Source: Candidatus Binataceae bacterium (GTDB lineage Bacteria; Desulfobacterota; Binatia; Binatales; Binataceae). From it: a DNA stretch of 64,000 nt. The notes below the pieces were generated by a model. The model did not search any database and was not told the origin of the DNA. It was given only the letters and a program-made list of their open reading frames with translations. Positions 1 through 51,314 of this stretch are shown in pieces; the first letter of the stretch is position 1, and each line of letters begins with the position of its first letter. The position numbers and the translations under genes are program-made. The stretch covers positions 190-64,189 of the forward strand of contig DATDGX010000147.1 in the NCBI GenBank assembly GCA_036521875.1. The letters run 5' to 3'.

Positions 1-669
1 GCGGCGATTCTCCGCGCGTCCTTCCGGAGTCGCGTTGCTCGCGACGAAGTTCGTCTTGCCAAAGCCCTGGGTTATCAACCGGCTCGACGGAATCCCTTGC
101 ATCCCCAGGTAATTGGCGACCGCGCCGGCGCGCCGCTCGGAAAGCCTGAGATTGTAGGCCTCGCTCCCGATCGCATCGCAGTAGCCGTTCACATGCACCG
201 TCACGTCGGGATTCGCCTTCAGAGTCGCGGCGGCTTCATCCAGCACTGCAGCATCGCCCGGCCGGATGTTGTACTTGTTGAAATCGAAATGTACGCCGCG
301 TAGCACCAGCTTCTCCTTGGCAAGAGGCGGCGGAGGCGGAGGTGGCGGAGGAGGAGGCGGCGGTGGCGGCGGGGGAGGAGGAGGCGGCTGAATTATCGGA
401 TCGCAAACATAATGTCCGACCAGCAGACCGACTATCGCGCCGACACCGGCGCCGATCACTGCGCCGGTGACTTTTCGCGAAGACGGCGGGTTGTGCTCAC
501 TGGTGTCCCCGATTGCGTAGCCGGCGCCGGCGCCCGCTGCCGTTCCCAAGAGGGCGCCCACCGCGGCGCATCCGTCCCATCTCCTCGGCTGCTGCAGGTT
601 GGCGCAACCGGCGCATAGCAGGACGAAACTCGACGCGACCGCGGTCAGAAACGAAGCTCGGGTTCTCAT
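1..669 (-). CDS. OmpA-family outer-membrane lipoprotein (partial; C-terminus runs off the window start)
   Basis: Minus-strand ATG at 667-669 preceded by GGAGGAG RBS. N-terminus has signal peptide with lipobox LLCAGC, Gly-zipper GAxGAxG segment and about 22-residue polyproline linker; C-terminal part is an OmpA_C-like peptidoglycan-binding domain (NGYCD..GS..YN..LS..RA..V, NRRVE). Not in ORF track because it is truncated at the window edge. Confidence 0.8.
   Translation of the reverse strand, partial: MRTRASFLTAVASSFVLLCAGCANLQQPRRWDGCAAVGALLGTAAGAGAGYAIGDTSEHNPPSSRKVTGAVIGAGVGAIVGLLVGHYVCDPIIQPPPPPPPPPPPPPPPPPPPPPLAKEKLVLRGVHFDFNKYNIRPGDAAVLDEAAATLKANPDVTVHVNGYCDAIGSEAYNLRLSERRAGAVANYLGMQGIPSSRLITQGFGKTNFVASNATPEGRAENRR
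310..395 (-). repeat. Simple GGN/CCN repeat encoding a polyproline linker inside the OmpA-family gene
   Basis: Plus strand reads (GGC/GGA/GGT)n for about 85 nt; on the minus strand this is CCN x about 22, an uninterrupted Pro run. Confidence 0.9.
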
Positions 670-3204: not shown

Positions 3205-4599
3205 ATGTTGAGTCCCTACATTGAAGCGTGGAACCTGCGCGACCTGGTGATTCGCAAGGAGATCCGTCCGCGCGAAGTCGCCGAGTTTTTTCTCGCCCGA
3301 ATCGAGAAGCTCAACGCAAAGCTCGGCGCATTCATGACCGTCACCCCCGAGCGCGCGAACGAAGACGCGGAGCGCCTCGAGCTGATGACCGCGGAGGAAG
3401 CCGCCGCAATGCCGCTGTTCGGGGTCGCGTACTCGCTCAAGGATCTCACCTGGACCAAAGACATTCGCACCACCTTCGGATCGAAGAACTACGAGAACTG
3501 GTTCGCACCCGCCGATGCCGAGATCGCGGTGCGGCTTCGCAACGCTGGCGGGATCCTGCTCGGCAAAACCACGACTTCGGAATTCGGATGCCGCCCCACG
3601 GTCGAGGGCGGACTATGCCCGCCTGCCATCAATCCGTGGAATGTCGAACACACCGCGGGCGGCTCGAGCGGCGGAGCCGCAGCCGCGGTCGCATCCGGGA
3701 TGCATCCGATCGCGCAGGGCAGCGACGGCGGCGGCTCGGTCCGGATTCCCGCCGCGTGCTGCGGGTTGGTCGGGATCAAACCGTCGCGCGGCCGCATCAC
3801 GTATGCGCCGCAGCAGGCGGAGTCGTGGGGCGGCTTCTCGACCATCGGACCACTCGCGCGCACGGTGCGCGACGCCGCGCTGATGCTCGATACGATGGCG
3901 GGCTCTGTGATCGGCGATCCGTACACGGCGTCGCCGCCCGCCAAGCCGTTCGTGAAAGCGCTCCGCGCGCGGCCAAAGAACTTGCGGCTAGGCGCGATTT
4001 CAGAGTCGTCGCTTGGCAGGTGCGACGCCGAGACGCTGGCCGCATTCGAGTCGGCGTGCGAGATGATGCGCGCGATGGGGCATACGATCGAGCCGCTCAA
4101 GCTCGATCCCGGCGCGCGGCTGATGGAATTCGCGCGGACGATCGTATGCGCCGGCGTAAGCGCCCTGCAGATCGAGAATCCCGCTCTCATGGACGAGGTC
4201 GCGCGCGGAACGTACGAGTATGGCCGCCGGATCAGCGCGGCCGAGTACATCCGCACGGTAACCCAGATGCACAACGCCTCGCGCGAGATCGTGCGCGAGC
4301 TGGCGCCCTACGATGCACTGCTGACGCCGACGCTCACTCGCCCCGCGGTGCGGCTCGGCACGTTGCCGTCGTCGCGTGAGAGCGCAAGCGCCGACATCTA
4401 TGGATGGAACTGTTTCGCATTCCCGTTCAACGTCACCGGCCAGCCCGCGGTAGCACTGCCCAATGGATTCGCCAGCTCAGGACTGCCTTTGAGCGTGCAA
4501 ATTGTCGGCCGGCCGTATGATGAGGCGGGGATAATCGCCCTGGCCGCGCAATTCGAAACCGCGCGTCCGTGGCGCAGCAAGCATCCACGCGTCGATTAG
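3205..4599 (+). CDS. Amidase (amidase-signature family)
   Basis: GGSSGGAAAAVASGM motif plus catalytic Ser-cisSer-Lys context (KDL..K, GGSSGG). Start assigned to ATG 3205 (MLSPYIEAWN...) 20 nt after the DUF5989 ORF; the track ORF 3082.. is an upstream in-frame extension. Confidence 0.85.
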   Translation: MLSPYIEAWNLRDLVIRKEIRPREVAEFFLARIEKLNAKLGAFMTVTPERANEDAERLELMTAEEAAAMPLFGVAYSLKDLTWTKDIRTTFGSKNYENWFAPADAEIAVRLRNAGGILLGKTTTSEFGCRPTVEGGLCPPAINPWNVEHTAGGSSGGAAAAVASGMHPIAQGSDGGGSVRIPAACCGLVGIKPSRGRITYAPQQAESWGGFSTIGPLARTVRDAALMLDTMAGSVIGDPYTASPPAKPFVKALRARPKNLRLGAISESSLGRCDAETLAAFESACEMMRAMGHTIEPLKLDPGARLMEFARTIVCAGVSALQIENPALMDEVARGTYEYGRRISAAEYIRTVTQMHNASREIVRELAPYDALLTPTLTRPAVRLGTLPSSRESASADIYGWNCFAFPFNVTGQPAVALPNGFASSGLPLSVQIVGRPYDEAGIIALAAQFETARPWRSKHPRVD

Positions 4600-4689
4600 T
4601 TTTAGATCAGCGATCTGTTAAGCCGATTTTCCGCTGCTGCTCAGGGCGCGAGCTTGCGGAACCACTGGGAGCGATGCTTTAAGCGAATG

Positions 4690-5562
4690 GAGATGAACAT
4701 CTCACTATTCCGTCATGCGTCGCGCGTTCTGGGGCGCGCCAGCGTTCCGAGTGCGGTATCGGCCTTATGCGCGGCGGGCCTCGTCTTCGTCTACCTGGTA
4801 TCGTTCATGGCCACGCCGGCTCGTTGCGACGATGCGGATATGTGGTGCGGCGCCGCGTGGTCCTGCGAGCAGCCGGTGCCCCCGCAAGCCGCCCAGGCCC
4901 CTTCCGTTCCACAAATATGGACCGCTATAGCGATTTCCAAGTCGACGCTGGGAAACGCCACGTCGTGGCAGGCGTCCTCAGAGTCCACCGCGGAAAGTGT
5001 CGCCCTCGACAGGTGCAACCGGAAACACCACGATTGCAGCATTGCGATATCTCGCCCCAACCTCTGCATCGCGCTCGCGGTCAGCACGAACTGGGCCTGG
5101 GCGGTTGGCCAGGCCGACACCTACATAGGCGCGGACCACGTGGCTTTCGCCAATTGCGTCGCCAACGGCGGAACTAAATGCGTCGTGACCGCCGATCCGT
5201 GTTCGGACGATGGACCGCTCGCGACGGGAAACTCATCCGCGTCCGCACAGACCCTGGGGCAGTCGACGAGTGCGCAAGCGGTCGATCAGCAACTGATCGG
5301 AGTGTGGGAAGTCGCGATACCTTCGCCACAGGGCGAGTTTGACATGCGTTCTCAGATCAACGCGAACGGCACTTTCTCAACGACATTTCCCGGATCGCCA
5401 ACGTCTCCGATTACCGGTTCATTTTCCGCGAGCAACGGAGTCTGGGTGTACACGACCGCGACGGGATCCGACGGCGGTTCCTACACTTTCACTAACCCGA
5501 ATCAGGTCACCATGGCGGGCAGGCTCGGGCCGCCCGCCACCTGGCATCGCGCAAGCAATTGA
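4690..5562 (+). CDS. Secreted protein with duplicated DUF4189-like Cys-containing domains
   Basis: Signal-peptide-like N-terminus (MEMNISLF...ALCAAGLVFVYLVSF). Two repeats of W.AIA.S...G...W...S...AE..AL..C......C pattern characteristic of DUF4189. Start uncertain (4654 or 4690). Confidence 0.5.
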   Translation, partial: EMNISLFRHASRVLGRASVPSAVSALCAAGLVFVYLVSFMATPARCDDADMWCGAAWSCEQPVPPQAAQAPSVPQIWTAIAISKSTLGNATSWQASSESTAESVALDRCNRKHHDCSIAISRPNLCIALAVSTNWAWAVGQADTYIGADHVAFANCVANGGTKCVVTADPCSDDGPLATGNSSASAQTLGQSTSAQAVDQQLIGVWEVAIPSPQGEFDMRSQINANGTFSTTFPGSPTSPITGSFSASNGVWVYTTATGSDGGSYTFTNPNQVTMAGRLGPPATWHRASN

Positions 5563-44843: not shown

Positions 44844-44906
44844 GTGAACCGCGGTTGCCTCAGTACTTCGCAAGTGGCTATTGCTAAACCGACAAGGAGA
44901 ATCTGA

Positions 44907-45530
44907 ATGATCGATCTATATACCTGGACAACTCCGAATGGCCGCAAGGCTTCCGTGATGCTCGAGGAATGCCGCATCGACTACCATGTGCATCCTGTGA
45001 ATATCGGTAAGGGAGAACAATTCACGCCCGAGTTTGTGAAGATCTGTCCCAACAGCAAGATTCCCGCAATCGTCGATAACGACGACAAGATCTCGATCTT
45101 CGAATCAGGCGCGATTCTGATTCACCTGGCGGAAAAAGCGGGAAAGCTGCTGCCAGCAAAAGGTCCCGGCCGCGCAAAGACGTTCGAGTGGCTAATGTGG
45201 CAGATGGCCAATATCGGACCGATGATCGGGCAGGCCAATCATTTCGCCAATGCCGCGCCGGAGAAGATTCCCTACGCAATCAATCGCTACATCACCGAGT
45301 CCGCACGCTTGATAAAGGTGATGGACGGCCAACTCGCGCGCAGCGAATTTCTAGCCGGTGAGTATTCGATTGCCGACATCGCCACCTATCCGTGGGTCGC
45401 CATAGCGTTCGCGTTCATCAAAGGCGCCAAGCCCGAAGTGGTCGGCGAAGGAGCGAACGTCGAGCGATGGATCAAGGCGATTGGTGAGCGGCCTGCGGTT
45501 CAGGCCGGGATGGCGGTGCCAAAAGTATGA
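44907..45530 (+). CDS. Glutathione S-transferase (Nu-class/YfcG-like)
   Basis: MIDLYTWTTPNGRKASVMLEE N-terminal thioredoxin-like domain, SKIPAIVDND, C-terminal helical domain. Confidence 0.85.
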   Translation: MIDLYTWTTPNGRKASVMLEECRIDYHVHPVNIGKGEQFTPEFVKICPNSKIPAIVDNDDKISIFESGAILIHLAEKAGKLLPAKGPGRAKTFEWLMWQMANIGPMIGQANHFANAAPEKIPYAINRYITESARLIKVMDGQLARSEFLAGEYSIADIATYPWVAIAFAFIKGAKPEVVGEGANVERWIKAIGERPAVQAGMAVPKV

Positions 45531-45584
45531 TCGATAATATGATAAATTCCTGAGGTCGAAGCGGATGCGGGAGGGTGGCGGAGG

Positions 45585-46349
45585 ATGGAACGCTCAGCCA
45601 GGAATTTGCCTGCGAATAGCTCTGGGAATTTTGCCGGCAAAGGGCTCATCGAGAAGTGGCCACGCTCGGAAGTTGAGTTGGGGCGCGTCATCGTCGCGTG
45701 GCTACGCGATCAGAAGTGGGAGGTTTACCAGGAAGTTCAGAACCGGTCGCGAGTCGCAGACATCGTTGCGGTGCGCGATAAAATCGTCTGGGTGGTTGAG
45801 CTCAAGGTCGCGTTGGGGCTCGCGATCATGGAGCAGGCGGAGGGTTGGCTCGGATGCGCGAACTACGTTTCCTGCGCAGTGCCGCGACGCCGCGTCAGCA
45901 GGTTCGTGAAGCGCGCTCTCGAGGCATGCGGAATCGGCCTGCTGGTCGCGCGTCCGTGGGGTCAACGCTACGAAGTGCAAGAGTACCTGCGTCCCTGCCT
46001 GGCACGCCGCTATGAAACTCCGTGGCGGCTCGACGTGCGTCACAAGACATTCGCTGAGGCAGGCAACGCGTTGAGCTTGCGTCTGTCTCCCTTCAAGGTC
46101 ACCTGTGAAAATGTTCTGCGCGCGGCCAAGGGAACTCCCGGCCTGACCATGACCGAGGTCATCAGGAGCATCGAGCATCACTATAGCTCGAGCGCGTCGG
46201 CGCGATGCTCACTACTGAAGTGGATACAAGCCGGAGAAGTGCCGGGCGTCGAAGCGCGGCTTCAAGATGGCCGCTACCGGATTTATGCGAAGGCTCGGAT
46301 AGTCAATTCCAAAGGTCGCTATTGCGGGCGCGCCCTCGCCGCACCCTGA
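45585..46349 (+). CDS. Hypothetical protein with PD-(D/E)xK nuclease-like core (restriction-endonuclease/Hjc-like) and C-terminal extension
   Basis: VADIVAVRDKIVWVVELK supplies D...(E)xK in the spacing of PD-(D/E)xK nucleases, preceded by an acidic helix; composition is lower in GC than its neighbours. Confidence 0.4.
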   Translation: MERSARNLPANSSGNFAGKGLIEKWPRSEVELGRVIVAWLRDQKWEVYQEVQNRSRVADIVAVRDKIVWVVELKVALGLAIMEQAEGWLGCANYVSCAVPRRRVSRFVKRALEACGIGLLVARPWGQRYEVQEYLRPCLARRYETPWRLDVRHKTFAEAGNALSLRLSPFKVTCENVLRAAKGTPGLTMTEVIRSIEHHYSSSASARCSLLKWIQAGEVPGVEARLQDGRYRIYAKARIVNSKGRYCGRALAAP

Positions 46350-46363
46350 ATAGCCAGCACGGT

Positions 46364-46395
46364 CATTAGCCACTTCGCGCATTAGCCACTTTGCG
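46364..46395. repeat. Tandem duplication of a 16-nt unit CATTAGCCACTT(C/T)GCG
   Basis: Two adjacent copies; the second overlaps the stop and last 4 codons of the minus-strand NTF2-like gene. Confidence 0.8.
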
Positions 46396-46852
46396 CGGGA
46401 TCCTTGCTCGCCCAGCCGGTTTCATACGGTGCCGACATCCGCCCAATCGCGCGCAAGTGCTTGAACGTCCATTCTCCGTAGACTTTGACGTAGTCCTCTT
46501 CGTAACGCGCGGCGAGCCACATCGCGCGATTTCCTTTACGAAATGTGAACGGCCCGAGAAAATACCAGGTTCCCTTCGCGCGGTCGCCGTAGACGTCGAT
46601 AATTGGATTCATCACGTTATGCTGCGAGAAACTGATTCTTTGCTGGAACCTTTCGAATAGAGCGCGAATCGCGGCGTGTCCCTGATGCACGCCGATTCCT
46701 TCGCCTTCCCAGATGCCGTCGGCTGCGAACAATTTCGTGATCTCATCGGGATTGTGATTGTCATCGCAGATGAGGCAGTAGCGCGCCTTCAGTTTCTTGA
46801 TCGCCTCGATATCCAGGAGTGTTGTGATGCGCATTTCGAGTTCCGTCGTCAT
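46382..46852 (-). CDS. Nuclear transport factor 2 (SnoaL-like) family protein
   Basis: 156 aa; LDIEAIKKLKARYCLICDDNH...WYFLGPFTF pattern of SnoaL/NTF2-like fold. Confidence 0.7.
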   Translation of the reverse strand: MTTELEMRITTLLDIEAIKKLKARYCLICDDNHNPDEITKLFAADGIWEGEGIGVHQGHAAIRALFERFQQRISFSQHNVMNPIIDVYGDRAKGTWYFLGPFTFRKGNRAMWLAARYEEDYVKVYGEWTFKHLRAIGRMSAPYETGWASKDPAQSG

Positions 46853-47659: not shown

Positions 47660-50047
47660 TCACTTGGGCTCCTCGAGAACGCCGTCGGCCATCAGTTTCG
47701 ACACCTCGTCATTACTCATTCCGAGCAGGGTCCGGCAGATCTCCCGGGTATGCTCGCCCAGCTTCGGCGCCGGGCGAACGATCGGATCGCCCATCGATGC
47801 CGCGTGAAACGCCGGACCCTCGAACGTCATCGCGCCGACTCCGGACTGATTCACCGGCTGCAAATAGCCGCGCGCAACCAGGTGCGGGTCGCCGGGCATA
47901 TCGCTCGCGTACATCATGAAGCCCGCGGGGACCGCTGACCGCTGCAGTATCTCGGTGACCTCGCGATCGGTGCGCGTCGCCGTCCACTCACTGGTGCGGC
48001 GGTCGAGCTCGTCGCGCGCGGCAATCCGGCCCTTGGCCGTTTGGTATTCGGGTTTGCGCGCCCACTCCGGATTACCCAGAGCCGCGCGCATGCGCCGCCA
48101 GTCATCATCGTCGCGAATAGTAATTACGCACCAACGTTCCTTGCCGGCGCACGGATACACGCCCCAAGGCGCGCCGCGATCGTTTCGATTGCCTTGCGGC
48201 GAGACTGAGCCGGGCTCGAGAGCCGACTTGAGTAGTAAGTCGGCGAGCAGGCCGATTACTACTTCGACCTGCGCCACTTCGAGATGTCCGCCAGTGCCGC
48301 GACGCTCGCGTGCGAAGACGGTCGCGAGCGCGCCGACGGCGAGCATCCGACCTGCCAGATGATCGGGATGGATGGCGCCCGAGCCGGGCGGCATCCCGCC
48401 CTCGGGAAAATTCCACAGGTAGGTCATCCCGCCGGCGGGGCGGGTGTTCGGTCCGAAACCAATCCAATCCTTCCATGGCCCGGTCGAGCCCATGAGCTGA
48501 CTCGAGGCGAGCACGATTCGCGGGTTCAACCGGCGCATCACCTCGAAACCGAGGCCTATTCGATCCATCGTCCCGGTCGAGCTGTTCTCGATCACGACGT
48601 CGGAGGCCGCAATCAGCCTCTTCAATATGTCGAGTCCCTGCGCGGTTCGCGCGTTCACTCCGAAGCTCCGCTTGCATCGGCTCGACGACGCGAACGAGGG
48701 GCTCATCTCGGAACCGAACACCACGCGGATGAAGTCGGGATAAGTTCGCGTCTCGATCTTAATGACGTCGCCGCCGTACTCGGCGAACAGCCGTGCCGCT
48801 TCGACGCCGACGCCGCCGATACCGAAGTCGAGGACGCGCAGCCCACTGAACGGAAGCCGCGGCTCGGCAAGACTCGGCGCGCGGCCGGGCGCGATGCGCG
48901 GCTCCTGACGCGCAATTTCAGCGCTATGCTCGCCGGCCTCGGGCGCGGGCCCGGTGAATCCGAGCCGATGGCCATCGAGCTCGAAGAATCCGTCGGCGAC
49001 CGGTGCGGTGACGCCGCGCATCACCTCGACCGCGCGAAAAGTTTTGCGTTCGAGCAAATGGTCGGCGCCGAGAACTTCTTCGGGGCTCAGCACCGGCGTC
49101 ATCGCAAGGCCACGACGCTGCGCTTCGCAAGCCAACTCGATCTTGGTCTCGTCTTTGAACAGCGCCGCGAACATCGGATCCAGGATGTCATGCTGAATCG
49201 ACATGCGGCCGAGTAGATGGTCGAAGTGGGCGTCCTGTACCACTTCAGGCTCGCCCAGCCACGCACGCATCGCATGCCACTGCCGCGGGCTCAAAATGAT
49301 CAATCGCACATAGCCATCAGCGCATGGATAAAGTGGATAGACGGGAGCGGAGCCGGAGCGCATCTCGCCATAGTTGCCGCCGAGGGCTTTGATCGCGCTG
49401 TAGCTCGGCAGCGCCCAGTCGGAGGTTTGCGCCGCCGCCTCCAGCACGGACACGTCGAGGTGCTGCCCGCGCCCGGTCGCGAGCCGTTGCCACAGCGCGG
49501 CGATGGTTGCGAACGCGGCGGCGGTCCCCGCGATGTCGTGAGCCATTGATCCCGGCGGCAGCAGCGGCGGCTTGTCCGGTACGCCGGAGCGGAACAGCAT
49601 CCCCGACATCGCGACGGCTACCGCGTCGGTCGCCACGTAATCGCGATAAGGGCCAGTCTGCCCGAAATCGGTGATCGAGGTGACGACCAGCCGCGGATGC
49701 CGCTCGAGCACTCCGCGATGATCGAGACCGCGCGCCGCGAGGAGGCCCGGCGGATACGACTCGACCCACACGTCGGCATCATCAAGCAGGCGCTCGAGCC
49801 GCTCGCGATCTTCCGCGCGTTCGAGATCGATCGTCGCGCTTTTCTTGCCGAGGTTGCGGACCGCGAAATGGAGACTCGTGTCTCCGTGAAATGGGGGGAG
49901 GCGCCGCGACGCCGCTCCGCCCGGCGGCTCGACGCGAATCACTTCAGCGCCAAGGTCGGCGAGCAGGCGCCCGCAGAGCTCGCCCTTCTCGACGGCTAGA
50001 TCGATGACGTGGACGCCCGCGAGCGGCCGCTCGGCATTCGCTGTCAT
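47660..50047 (-). CDS. Tandem-fused family III CoA-transferase (two CaiB/BaiF domains in one polypeptide)
   Basis: Two full domains: LAGVHVIDLAVEKGELCGRLLADLGAEVIRVEPPGG and LSGLRVLDFGIGGVGVEAARLFAEYGGDVIKIETR. About 795 aa from ATG 50045-50047. Confidence 0.85.
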   Translation of the reverse strand: MTANAERPLAGVHVIDLAVEKGELCGRLLADLGAEVIRVEPPGGAASRRLPPFHGDTSLHFAVRNLGKKSATIDLERAEDRERLERLLDDADVWVESYPPGLLAARGLDHRGVLERHPRLVVTSITDFGQTGPYRDYVATDAVAVAMSGMLFRSGVPDKPPLLPPGSMAHDIAGTAAAFATIAALWQRLATGRGQHLDVSVLEAAAQTSDWALPSYSAIKALGGNYGEMRSGSAPVYPLYPCADGYVRLIILSPRQWHAMRAWLGEPEVVQDAHFDHLLGRMSIQHDILDPMFAALFKDETKIELACEAQRRGLAMTPVLSPEEVLGADHLLERKTFRAVEVMRGVTAPVADGFFELDGHRLGFTGPAPEAGEHSAEIARQEPRIAPGRAPSLAEPRLPFSGLRVLDFGIGGVGVEAARLFAEYGGDVIKIETRTYPDFIRVVFGSEMSPSFASSSRCKRSFGVNARTAQGLDILKRLIAASDVVIENSSTGTMDRIGLGFEVMRRLNPRIVLASSQLMGSTGPWKDWIGFGPNTRPAGGMTYLWNFPEGGMPPGSGAIHPDHLAGRMLAVGALATVFARERRGTGGHLEVAQVEVVIGLLADLLLKSALEPGSVSPQGNRNDRGAPWGVYPCAGKERWCVITIRDDDDWRRMRAALGNPEWARKPEYQTAKGRIAARDELDRRTSEWTATRTDREVTEILQRSAVPAGFMMYASDMPGDPHLVARGYLQPVNQSGVGAMTFEGPAFHAASMGDPIVRPAPKLGEHTREICRTLLGMSNDEVSKLMADGVLEEPK

Positions 50048-50084
50048 GTCAGGTCCCGCGATGGGCTCACTGCTCTGCGCGTCG

Positions 50085-51314
50085 TTACTCCGCGCTGGCG
50101 GGCGCGAGATGGACCGGCAGATGTTTGATCCCATTGATGAAGTTCGAACGCAGCCGCTTAACTTCGCCGGCCATCTTGGGTGCCGGCGCCCGCTTCACCA
50201 GTTCCTCGAGCAGAATGTTGATCTCCATCCGCGCGAGACTTGCACCCAAACAGAAATGTGCGCCGCCGCCGCCGAAAGCGATGTGCTCGTTAGGGGAGCG
50301 CGTGATGTCGAAGCGGAACGGGTCGTCGAAAATTTCCTCGTCGCGATTGGCAGAGATGTACCAGATGCTCAGCTTGTCGCCCGCCTTCAGTAGATGCCCG
50401 CGCACCTCGGCGTCGCGAGTCACGTTGCGGCGAAAATACATGACCGGCGAAGCCCAGCGCAGGATCTCCTCGGTCGCCGAGGGCACCAGCGACGGGTCAT
50501 CGACCAGCATTCGATACTGCTCGGGATGCTGGATGAGCGTGTGCACGCCGTGGGAGAGCGCGTTGCGCGTAGTTTCGTTGCCCGCCACTGCGAGCAGCAG
50601 GAAGAACAGGTTGAAGTCCATCTCGGAGAGGCGGTCGCCATTGATCTCGGCGTTGAACAGGGTAGTGACGAGATCGTCGCGCGGCTCCTCGCGACGCTTG
50701 GCCGCGAGCGAATTCGCATACATGAACATCTCGATCTGTGCCTGGCGGACCAGGTCGTCGCTGATTGCGTATTCCGGATCCTCGCTGCCGATCATTCGGT
50801 TGCTCCACTGGAATACCTTGTGACGATCCTCCAGCGGCACGCCCAGCAGCTCGGCTATTACCTGCAGCGTCAGCTCCGCCGCCACATCGACGACGAAGTC
50901 GCACTGGTCGCCTTTGGTGATGGCGCGCTCGACAATCCCGCCGGTGATCTCGCGGATGTGCGCCGAGAGCGCGTTGATCATGCGCGGCGTGAATCCCTTG
51001 TTGACCAGCGAGCGGTAGCGGGTGTGGTCGGGCGGGTCCATGGTCAGCATCATGCGGCCGCCGCGGTTGAAGTCGTCCATCTCCATGTCGCGGAGCTGTA
51101 CTACGCCGCCGCGCTCCTGCTCGGAGGAGAAAGACTGCGAATCGCGACCCACCTGGACGACGTCGTCGTAGCGGGTGATTACCCAGAAACCCGGGCCGTT
51201 CGGCTCCGGATGCTTGTAGACGGGGGCGTTGCGCCGCAGGTAGGTGAACCATTCGTGGGGCACGCCCTGCACGAAGCTGTCGGGACTCAGCAGATCGATC
51301 TGATTAGGGTCCAT
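50085..51314 (-). CDS. Cytochrome P450
   Basis: Heme-binding loop FGGGAHFCLGASLAR, ExxR (ETLRW region), I-helix AGNETT. Confidence 0.9.
   Translation of the reverse strand: MDPNQIDLLSPDSFVQGVPHEWFTYLRRNAPVYKHPEPNGPGFWVITRYDDVVQVGRDSQSFSSEQERGGVVQLRDMEMDDFNRGGRMMLTMDPPDHTRYRSLVNKGFTPRMINALSAHIREITGGIVERAITKGDQCDFVVDVAAELTLQVIAELLGVPLEDRHKVFQWSNRMIGSEDPEYAISDDLVRQAQIEMFMYANSLAAKRREEPRDDLVTTLFNAEINGDRLSEMDFNLFFLLLAVAGNETTRNALSHGVHTLIQHPEQYRMLVDDPSLVPSATEEILRWASPVMYFRRNVTRDAEVRGHLLKAGDKLSIWYISANRDEEIFDDPFRFDITRSPNEHIAFGGGGAHFCLGASLARMEINILLEELVKRAPAPKMAGEVKRLRSNFINGIKHLPVHLAPASAE

What the first reader, a model, noticed from the sequence alone, without database searches (positions are those of the whole stretch)
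45585..46395. Stand-alone PD-(D/E)xK-like nuclease-fold protein in a lower-GC patch, with a 16-nt tandem duplication at its 3' flank
The ORF has the acidic-helix / D / ExK arrangement of restriction-endonuclease-like nucleases (ADIVAVRDKIVWVVELK) plus a C-terminal extension of about 130 aa. It is visibly less GC-rich than the flanking GST and NTF2 genes. Immediately downstream, CATTAGCCACTT(C/T)GCG is duplicated in tandem, with the second copy providing the last codons and stop of the convergent NTF2 gene, which is a signature of a recent small duplication or an insertion junction. No partner methyltransferase, helicase or ATPase is present, so I cannot call it a defence system. It could be a solitary endonuclease, a DNA-repair factor or a relic of a mobile element.
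Basis: partly seen in the sequence, partly recalled or inferred. Interest (0 to 1): 0.5.

Follow-up and report, generated by a model that had tools for sequence, protein, structure and literature searches.

The report
Phage-type nuclease gene kept in chromosome
This 254-residue gene of a soil bacterium (probably Binataceae) encodes a restriction-enzyme-like DNA-cutting domain fused to a winged-helix DNA-binding domain; its family is large, unstudied and otherwise found in phages (SPO1 gp1.5), so it is an ordinary but uncharacterised nuclease, not a new system.

Summary
The ORF (45585-46349, +) is real. It has the predicted fold: an N-terminal PD-(D/E)xK nuclease core and a C-terminal winged helix-turn-helix. 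The model is confident (pLDDT 88.6). The best structural neighbours are SPO1766 (3dnx), XisH, NucS and Hjc.

D59, E72, K74 and Q84 are invariant across 79 diverse homologues. E29 is nearly invariant.

The protein matches PHROG 12193 over its full length, and also Bacillus phage SPO1 gp1.5. The family has at least 1,700 clusters at 50% identity. Every other context I examined is phage-like.

Here the gene stands alone among metabolic genes, with no phage, methylase, helicase or defence neighbours. It is not compositionally foreign: its GC is 60.9%, against 62.3% for the window.

The gene is syntenic in the only diverged relative found (87% aa). It is under purifying selection there (dN/dS 0.12). 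One 99% relative carries a nonsense codon.

The 16-nt tandem duplication is real and does supply the NTF2 stop. The relative has three diverged units, so the array is old and is not a fresh insertion junction.

Verdict: a domesticated phage-family endonuclease; its biological role is unknown.

The parts
45585..46349 (+). Complete ORF, 254 aa: gp1.5-family (PHROG 12193) nuclease-wHTH protein. The ATG follows GGGAGGG/GGAGG Shine-Dalgarno-like purine runs.
   Evidence: phrog_12193 E 3.3e-25, residues 29-237 on profile positions 3-220 of 229; BFVD 'Gp1.5', TM 0.88 normalised to the target. The start codon and SD are conserved in L003.
45585..45668 (+). Lineage-specific N-terminal extension (residues 1-28). 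The model confidence is low for residues 1-16 (pLDDT <50 for 1-3 and 6-16). It contains an imperfect 25-nt tandem duplication at 45601-45647.
   Evidence: pLDDT about 46-48 for residues 1-20; TRF period 25, 1.9 copies; most homologues start 5-8 residues before E29; L003 lacks 4 codons here.
45669..45989 (+). PD-(D/E)xK nuclease core, residues 29-135. Helix 1 carries E29, strand 1 E50, strand 2 D59, strand 3 E72-x-K74 and helix 2 Q84.
45990..46088 (+). Conserved linker, residues 136-168, with the family motif HKTFAEAGN..G.R.TPF (K154, A159 and G160 conserved). Its role is unknown.
   Evidence: (G160 invariant; K154, A159 and P169 >=90%)
46089..46289 (+). Winged helix-turn-helix domain, residues 169-235: three helices plus a beta-hairpin wing. 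H199, Y200 and the SAR..S...WI helix (the putative recognition helix) are conserved.
46290..46349 (+). Unconserved, disordered C-terminal tail and the TGA stop. It differs from the L003 tail.
   Evidence: (pLDDT <50 for 244-254).
46348..46395 (.). 16-nt tandem array in the 32-nt convergent spacer. It has a degenerate unit (46348-46363, 9 of 16 matches, covering the nuclease stop) and two near-identical units (46364-46379 and 46380-46395). The last unit encodes the final codons and stop of the SnoaL/NTF2 gene.
   Evidence: (three diverged units in L003, the first holding the nuclease stop). (no stable hairpin: z +0.6 on both strands).
44872..44883 (+). Inverted copy of the 12-nt repeat core (AAGTGGCTATTG), in the spacer upstream of GST. 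Whether it belongs to the feature is unresolved.
   Evidence: 4 hits at <=1 mismatch in the window, all within 1.5 kb; 0.07 expected.
45186..45197 (+). Second inverted copy of the 12-nt core (GAGTGGCTAATG), inside the GST coding sequence (codons E-W-L-M). It may be a coding coincidence.
45516..45543 (+). Weak sigma-70-like promoter match (GTGCCA-16-TATGAT) over the end of GST, 42 nt upstream of the nuclease ATG.
   Evidence: 9 of 12 matches; 2 sites found against 1.0 expected, so not significant.

Best explanation
The gene encodes a metal-dependent DNA endonuclease of the phage 'gp1.5' family (PHROG 12193). A small Hjc/MmcB-like PD-(D/E)xK catalytic core (E29, D59, E72-x-K74, Q84) is joined by a conserved linker to a C-terminal winged helix-turn-helix, which places the catalytic core on DNA.

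The family is otherwise carried by tailed phages, in their early/DNA-metabolism gene blocks and without a fixed partner gene. An ancestor of this Binataceae-like lineage acquired one copy. All other phage genes, if any came with it, are gone. The copy has since been inherited vertically, has taken on host composition and has been kept by purifying selection, so it is a domesticated solitary nuclease.

The role I think most likely is cutting branched or damaged DNA in recombination or repair, as Hjc and MmcB do, rather than restriction.

What is shown and what is inferred:
- Shown: the fold, the conserved catalytic residues, family membership, the phage distribution, synteny and selection.
- Inferred: metal-dependent DNA cleavage, and that the wHTH binds DNA.
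- Guessed: the substrate and the cellular role.
For: Fold and structural neighbours:
- pLDDT 88.6, pTM 0.81, with alpha-beta-beta-beta-alpha-beta topology followed by a wHTH.
- Hjc-type resolvases are the top Foldseek PDB hits (all weak, none at E <= 0.001) and the top sequence-profile hits.

Conserved residues: D59, E72, K74, Q84 and E50 are invariant and E29 is >=90% conserved in 79 members at 27-45% identity.

Family membership:
- phrog_12193, E 3.3e-25, full length.
- BFVD 'Gp1.5', TM 0.88.
- tblastn hits to SPO1 gp1.5, about 25 SPO1-like phages and phage D6E ORF42.
- 26 IMG/VR contigs.
- All 9 metagenomic or NCBI contexts look phage-like: terminase, SNF2, ParB-methylase, Mom, runs of small co-oriented ORFs.
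- The family has 1,718 clusters at E<=1e-30, nearly all 210-260 aa.

Domestication:
- The neighbours are esterases, GST, SnoaL, TetR, CoA-transferase and P450, and there is no tRNA gene in the window.
- Same flanks in L003-L007.
- dN/dS is 0.12 at dS 0.67, against 0.07-0.22 for the neighbours.
- GC and codon use are within 1 SD of the window's genes.
- The next closest homologue is only 46% identical.
Against: - There is no biochemical evidence for any member of the family.
- The protein passes no curated Pfam or NCBIfam threshold (Hjc 14.2 bits against a cut-off of 21.1), so the repair/resolvase analogy rests on fold only.
- Phage D6E carries this family and also a separately annotated Holliday-junction resolvase, which argues against a simple resolvase role.
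- One 99%-identical metagenomic contig (L004) has TGG->TGA at codon 39 (window position 45701), so the gene may be dispensable, or this may be an assembly error.
- Selection was measured on a single pair of sequences.
- No genome lacking the gene at this locus could be found, so the acquisition is inferred from family distribution and not from an empty site.
Confidence: 0.55

Rival explanations
1. It is a solitary defence nuclease, either a Type IV-like (modification-dependent) or an exclusion-type restriction enzyme. The wHTH would recognise incoming phage DNA, perhaps modified DNA, and the PD-(D/E)xK core would cut it. No methyltransferase is needed because the host genome lacks the target.
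For: - It is stand-alone and selected.
- A nuclease plus wHTH is the domain logic of Mrr-type and Type IIS enzymes.
- Several phages carrying the family also carry DNA-modification genes (Mom, ParB-methylase, GTP cyclohydrolase I/Vut_1, TAGT; SPO1 has hydroxymethyluracil DNA, from my own knowledge). The family may therefore deal with modified versus unmodified DNA.
Against: - No PADLOC model matches.
- The neighbours are metabolic genes, not a defence island.
- The family is overwhelmingly phage-borne.
- The domain order is reversed relative to Mrr and FokI (from my own knowledge of those enzymes).
Confidence: 0.2
2. It is a selfish free-standing homing-type endonuclease gene. It inserted between GST/Abhydrolase_11 and SnoaL, and the 16-nt repeats and the inverted 12-nt motif copies are its target or insertion footprints.
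For: - It is free-standing, with no conserved neighbour in 31 phage loci.
- It sits in a convergent intergenic position.
- There is a tandem repeat at its 3' end, and the 12-nt core occurs four times within 1.5 kb against 0.07 expected in 64 kb.
Against: - The position is conserved in all SPO1-like phages rather than sporadic.
- The gene is syntenic and under purifying selection across dS 0.67.
- The repeat array is old and diverged in L003.
- There are no flanking inverted or direct repeats beyond chance around 38 family loci.
- No empty site was found.
- One of the extra motif copies lies in a conserved GST coding motif.
Confidence: 0.1
3. It is a decaying relic: the last surviving gene of a lost prophage, no longer functional and on its way to becoming a pseudogene.
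For: - It is of phage origin with no other phage genes left.
- L004 has a premature stop at codon 39.
- The N-terminal extension and C-terminal tail are sloppy and contain small tandem duplications.
Against: - The 254-codon frame is intact in the window, L003, L006 and L007.
- All family-invariant residues are retained.
- dN/dS is 0.12, like the neighbouring genes.
Confidence: 0.1
4. It is a DNA-binding regulator with a degenerate, non-catalytic nuclease fold. The nuclease-like domain would serve only for dimerisation or ligand sensing, and the wHTH would repress nearby genes through the repeated motif.
For: - The wHTH resembles MarR/ArsR repressors.
- A copy of the local motif lies 24 nt upstream of the GST start codon.
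Against: - The full catalytic set is invariant family-wide, which is not expected for an inactivated fold.
- Phage members have no common neighbour to regulate.
- The motif is not conserved in L003.
Confidence: 0.05

Closest known systems
Bacillus phage SPO1 gp1.5 / PHROG 12193 (function unknown)
   Same: Same two-domain architecture and length. Full-length HMM match (E 3.3e-25), tblastn 30% identity over 82% of the query and a full-length structural match to phage 'Gp1.5' proteins (TM 0.88 normalised to the target).
   Different: This copy is chromosomal, among metabolic genes, with no phage context. It has a 22-28 aa N-terminal extension and a 17-aa tail that other members lack. Its nearest relative outside its own lineage is 46% identical.
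MmcB-like / DUF1052 (Pfam PF06319). Caulobacter MmcB is an SOS-induced PD-(D/E)xK endonuclease needed for mitomycin C and cisplatin tolerance (PMC9578287). I recall 3dnx (SPO1766) as the family's structure, but did not check this here.
   Different: The window protein itself gives no PF06319 hit at E<=10. 3dnx is a single domain of 146 aa with no wHTH. No SOS-box-like palindrome is evident in the 54-nt upstream spacer (my reading).
Archaeal Holliday-junction resolvase Hjc (PF01870)
   Same: It is the only Pfam hit (E 0.042, residues 34-77). It is also the top PDB profile and Foldseek hit (ST1444, Hjc). The core is of the same minimal size, with the same E...D...ExK order.
   Different: The score is below the curated cut-off (14.2 against 21.1 bits). 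Hjc has no wHTH. Junction specificity has not been tested.
Type IIS / Type IV restriction endonucleases built from wHTH plus a PD-(D/E)xK domain (FokI, PaqCI, Mrr-like)
   Different: The domain order is reversed and the protein is much smaller (own knowledge for FokI and Mrr). There is no methyltransferase partner and no PADLOC hit.
Tn7 TnsA (N-terminal restriction-enzyme-like catalytic domain plus C-terminal winged-helix-like domain; recalled from memory, Hickman et al. 2000)
   Same: The order of domains and the overall size (about 270 aa) are the same.

Membership tests
PD-(D/E)xK nuclease superfamily | alpha-beta-beta-beta-alpha-beta core fold | tested here: met
PD-(D/E)xK nuclease superfamily | Catalytic acidic residue on strand 2 and (D/E)xK on strand 3, conserved across the family | tested here: met
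   D59, E72 and K74 are invariant in 79 homologues, Q84 is also invariant, and E29 is >=90% conserved.
PD-(D/E)xK nuclease superfamily | Metal-dependent phosphodiester cleavage | not testable with these tools
   Needs biochemistry.
PHROG 12193 / SPO1 gp1.5 family | Full-length profile match | tested here: met
   E 3.3e-25; residues 29-237 on profile positions 3-220 of 229. tblastn to SPO1 gp1.5, E 5e-14. BFVD Gp1.5, E 1.8e-17.
PHROG 12193 / SPO1 gp1.5 family | Located in a phage or prophage genome | tested here: not met
   There are no phage genes within -8.4 kb / +10 kb and no tRNA gene in the window. The other family members examined are all in phage-like contexts.
MmcB-like (PF06319) | Score above the Pfam gathering threshold | tested here: not met
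   No hit for the window protein at E<=10. Only weak hits in 8 of 25 relatives.
MmcB-like (PF06319) | DNA-damage (SOS) regulation and a role in cross-link tolerance | not testable with these tools
   These properties of MmcB come from the literature (PMC9578287). No expression data are available here.
Hjc Holliday-junction resolvase (PF01870) | Score above the Pfam gathering threshold | tested here: not met
   14.2 bits against a cut-off of 21.1, covering only residues 34-77.
Restriction-modification system | Adjacent cognate methyltransferase | tested here: not met
   The neighbours are Abhydrolase_11, GST, SnoaL_4, TetR, CoA_transf_3 and p450.
Known anti-phage defence systems (PADLOC-DB 2.0) | Match to any system component model | tested here: not met
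   0 families at E<=1.
Free-standing homing endonuclease gene | Sporadic presence/absence at a fixed site among close relatives, with a cleavable empty site | tested here: inconclusive
   The gene is present in all 5 contigs that share the locus. No syntenic locus without it was found among 63 genome and 80 metagenome loci retrieved with the SnoaL anchor. The position is conserved in SPO1-like phages.
Winged helix-turn-helix DNA-binding domain | Three-helix bundle plus beta-hairpin wing | tested here: met

The most novel reading that the evidence does not exclude
The gp1.5 family may be a new class of site-directed phage endonuclease, and its chromosomal copy here may act on the locally repeated 12-16-nt motif. 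That motif has two tandem units at the gene's 3' end and two inverted copies that bracket the GST-nuclease block. Under this reading the nuclease created, or still maintains, this small variable region, as a mobile or recombination-promoting 'nuclease plus sites' module. Alternatively, given how often carrier phages encode DNA-modification genes, the family may discriminate modified from unmodified DNA.
Probability: 0.1. Interest if true: 0.55.

Novelty: new member of a known kind. Interest (0 to 1): 0.25.

Why it matters
It matters modestly. The work gives a fold-level and active-site-level annotation (PD-(D/E)xK nuclease plus wHTH) to a sizeable protein family. That family has at least 1,700 clusters at 50% identity, includes SPO1 gp1.5, and has no Pfam or NCBIfam model and no known function.

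It also documents a case in which a member has been captured and kept under selection in a bacterial chromosome, in a poorly studied soil lineage (Binataceae-like). Such a domesticated copy could be a convenient handle for working out what the phage family does.

It does not reveal a new kind of system, and nothing here would surprise a specialist in nuclease families.

Tried and rejected
1. Lower-GC or foreign composition: rejected. The ORF's GC, GC3 and codon adaptation are within 1 SD of the window's genes, and the flanks are the lower-GC ones.

2. Presence/absence in relatives:
- I spent the single genome-contig scan and the single metagenome-contig scan on the adjacent SnoaL protein as an anchor.
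- The 143 loci returned (SnoaL <=85% identical, mostly Binataceae / 'delta proteobacterium' MAGs) share no other gene with this locus.
- So no empty site was found, and the test stayed inconclusive.

3. Conserved partner gene in phages: clustering the ORFs within +/-5 kb in 31 loci gave no neighbour family shared by more than 4 loci.

4. Cassette with terminal repeats: no inverted or direct repeats beyond shuffled controls between the flanks of 38 family loci.

5. Terminator or hairpin in the 16-nt repeat spacer: no; z +0.6 on both strands, and no terminator-like site there.

6. Genome-wide repeat element: the 12-mer is absent from the other 181 loci fetched, and from the rest of the window.

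7. Sequence search of the PDB, with the single sequence and with the profile: nothing significant, only sub-threshold Hjc hits.

8. The afdb50 fold library was unavailable.

9. Literature: no paper on SPO1 gp1.5. DUF1052 appears only in PD-(D/E)xK superfamily surveys and one Wolbachia cifA/cifB preprint.

10. Prophage remnant: no tRNA gene in the window, and no integrase or phage genes within the roughly 19 kb annotated by Pfam.

Full report
**Observation**

The window has a 254-codon ORF at 45585-46349 on the + strand. It is preceded by purine-rich Shine-Dalgarno-like runs and followed, after 32 nt, by the stop of a convergent 156-aa SnoaL/NTF2 gene (46382-46852, -).

The 16-nt tandem duplication is also there, at 46364-46379 (CATTAGCCACTTCGCG) and 46380-46395 (CATTAGCCACTTTGCG). 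TRF scores it 59 with 94% matches. The second unit contains the last codons (A-Q-S-G) and the TAA stop of the SnoaL gene.

The compositional statement is wrong in direction.
- The ORF is 60.9% GC, GST is 55.6%, SnoaL is 54.6% and the window is 62.3%.
- The ORF lies at the 27th percentile of same-length windows.
- Its codon adaptation to the window's 55 long ORFs is 0.615, against 0.657 +/- 0.069.

**What the protein is**

Curated libraries say almost nothing:
- Pfam gives one sub-threshold hit, to Hjc (E 0.042, 14.2 bits against a cut-off of 21.1).
- NCBIfam, PADLOC and a PDB sequence search give nothing.
- PHROGs gives a full-length match to phrog_12193, function unknown (E 3.3e-25).

An AlphaFold2 model built on 25 homologues is confident (pLDDT 88.6, pTM 0.81) and has two domains.

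Residues 29-135 form the canonical alpha-beta-beta-beta-alpha-beta restriction-endonuclease-like core.
- Foldseek against the PDB finds nothing at E <= 0.001; Hjc-type resolvases head its weak hits.

A conserved linker (HKTFAEAGN..G.R.TPF) joins the two domains.

In an alignment of 79 members at 27-45% identity to the query, E50, D59, E72, K74, Q84, G118, G160, T173, H199 and Y200 are invariant. E29 on the first helix is >=90% conserved (for the first 25).

**Family and distribution**

The word-indexed search found only 34 relatives. The exhaustive HMMER search with the profile found 4,367 clusters (at 50% identity) at E<=1e-3 and 1,718 at E<=1e-30. Nearly all of the top 150 are 210-260 aa and match over the full length. 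The family is therefore sizeable and its architecture is fixed.

Everything I could place is phage:
- SPO1 gp1.5, about 25 SPO1-like Bacillus phages with the gene at a conserved map position, and phage D6E ORF42.
- 26 IMG/VR contigs.
- BFVD models named Gp1.5, with TM 0.88.
- Nine metagenomic or NCBI contigs whose neighbours are SNF2 helicases, PDDEXK_1, ParB-methyltransferase, Mom, ThyX, terminases and runs of small co-oriented ORFs.

No neighbour family is shared by more than 4 of 31 loci, so the gene works without a fixed partner in phages too. An Enterococcus phage of the same virus family has a gene annotated 'MmcB-like' (PMC10054541). MmcB itself is a Caulobacter SOS-induced PD-(D/E)xK endonuclease implicated in cross-link tolerance (PMC9578287).

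**The copy in this window**

The organism is probably a member of Binataceae. The adjacent SnoaL gene has its best hits, at 76-82%, mostly in Binataceae / 'delta proteobacterium' soil MAGs.

Around the nuclease gene are a carboxylesterase, two alpha/beta hydrolases, GST, SnoaL, TetR, a double CoA-transferase, a P450, an enoyl-CoA hydratase and a luciferase-like oxidoreductase. There are no phage, integrase, transposase, methylase, helicase or defence genes among them, and no tRNA gene in the window.

The same locus occurs on four further contigs:
- L006 and L007 are identical to the window.
- L004 is about 99% identical.
- L003 has 87% amino-acid identity in the nuclease and 84-91% in its neighbours.

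Between the window and L003 the nuclease has dN 0.080, dS 0.670 and dN/dS 0.12. SnoaL has 0.07, Abhydrolase_11 0.15 and TetR 0.22. The gene was therefore present before these lineages split, has diverged in step with its neighbours and is under purifying selection.

The next closest homologue anywhere is 46% identical. This fits a single old acquisition from a phage, followed by vertical descent.

Two things cut the other way. L004 has TGG->TGA at codon 39, which is window position 45701; this is either a real loss-of-function variant or an assembly error. And I could not find any genome with the flanking genes but without the nuclease. The 143 loci retrieved with the SnoaL anchor share nothing else with this locus.

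**The 16-nt repeat**

It is a real duplication, but not a fresh one and not obviously an insertion junction.
- L003 has three units at the same position: CATTAGTTAATTGGCG, TATTAGTCAATTCGCG and CATTAGCCATTGCGCG. The first holds the nuclease stop codon.
- Aligned to L003, the window has a degenerate third unit at 46348-46363 covering its own stop codon.
- The array therefore predates the split. The near-identity of the two window units suggests later slippage or conversion.
- The spacer has no hairpin (z +0.6 on both strands) and no terminator-like site.

One thing remains unexplained. The 12-nt core, AAGTGGCTAATG, occurs four times in the window at <=1 mismatch, all within 1.5 kb, against 0.07 expected.
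- Two occurrences are the tandem units.
- The other two are inverted copies, at 44872 (in the spacer upstream of GST) and at 45186 (inside GST, in the E-W-L-M codons).
- The motif is absent from all other loci fetched and is poorly conserved in L003.
- No comparable flank repeats surround 38 other family members.

I therefore rate it a weak lead, not evidence of mobility.

**Mechanism**

Best-supported: a metal-dependent DNA endonuclease in which the wHTH docks an Hjc/MmcB-like catalytic core on DNA. It is of phage origin, domesticated and selected. I put the molecular part at about 0.8.

The role is a guess. I favour processing of branched or damaged DNA (recombination or repair), because the closest folds and the only sequence hints are Hjc and MmcB-like proteins. 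The phage copies also sit in DNA-metabolism or pre-terminase regions.

Rivals:
- a solitary defence or Type IV-like nuclease (0.2);
- a selfish homing-type gene (0.1);
- a decaying relic (0.1);
- a non-catalytic regulator (0.05).

**Comparison and novelty**

It is a member of PHROG 12193 / the gp1.5 family (tested and met). It belongs to the PD-(D/E)xK superfamily by fold and motif (met). It does not pass the Pfam thresholds for MmcB-like or Hjc (tested and not met). It is not part of an R-M or PADLOC system (not met).

It differs from MmcB and Hjc by the added wHTH. It differs from FokI and Mrr-type enzymes by domain order and size. It differs from its own family by being chromosomal and partnerless in a non-phage context.

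It is a new member of a known kind. Interest is low to moderate.

Noticed in passing
L003:620-690, compared with window 44844-45530: In the 87% relative the GST gene is missing between Abhydrolase_11 and the nuclease gene. About 50 nt of its 3' end (encoding ..ERPAVQAGMAVPKA*) remain, so GST was deleted there rather than inserted in the window lineage. The locus is structurally unstable on this side.
   Followed up: partly
L004:829-831 (window position 45701): A 99%-identical metagenomic contig has TGG->TGA at codon 39 of the nuclease (the W of VAWLRD). The gene caller then reported only a 192-aa fragment (P0002) that lacks E29 and D59. This is either a real pseudogene allele or an assembly error.
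   Followed up: partly
window 44872-44883, 45186-45197, 46364-46391: The 12-nt core of the tandem unit (AAGTGGCTAATG) occurs four times at <=1 mismatch, all within 1.5 kb, against 0.07 expected in 64 kb. Two copies are inverted relative to the tandem pair and bracket the GST-nuclease block. One of them lies in a conserved GST coding motif.
   Followed up: partly
window 45601-45647: There is an imperfect 25-nt tandem duplication (1.9 copies, 78% match) inside the non-conserved, low-confidence N-terminal extension of the nuclease ORF. L003 is 12 nt shorter here.
   Followed up: no
L010, L011, L001, L183, L008 (phage loci carrying family members): Many phages that carry the family also carry DNA-modification or unusual-nucleotide genes: ParB-N6/N4 methylase and Mom (L010); GTP cyclohydrolase I, Vut_1, Nuc_deoxyri_tr2 and ThyX (L011); Nuc_deoxyri_tr2 (L001); TAGT (L183). 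SPO1 has hydroxymethyluracil DNA (my own knowledge). This may link the family to modified DNA, but I did not test it statistically.
   Followed up: no
window 47660-50134 (-) and 50085-51314 (-): The longest ORF for the double-domain CoA_transf_3 protein (824 aa) overlaps the upstream P450 gene by 50 nt. The public gene call for the identical contig starts later (795 aa), so the true start is probably downstream of the longest-ORF start.
   Followed up: no
L183:386-1063 and 4122-4799: This phage contig has two ORFs of exactly 225 aa, 3.7 kb apart, and the first is the family member. I did not check whether the second is a paralogue.
   Followed up: no
window 324-388: A GAGGCGGCG-type short tandem array (periods 3, 6, 9, 15 and 21; TRF score up to 79) has the strongest tandem-repeat score in the window. 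It is unrelated to this finding.
   Followed up: no
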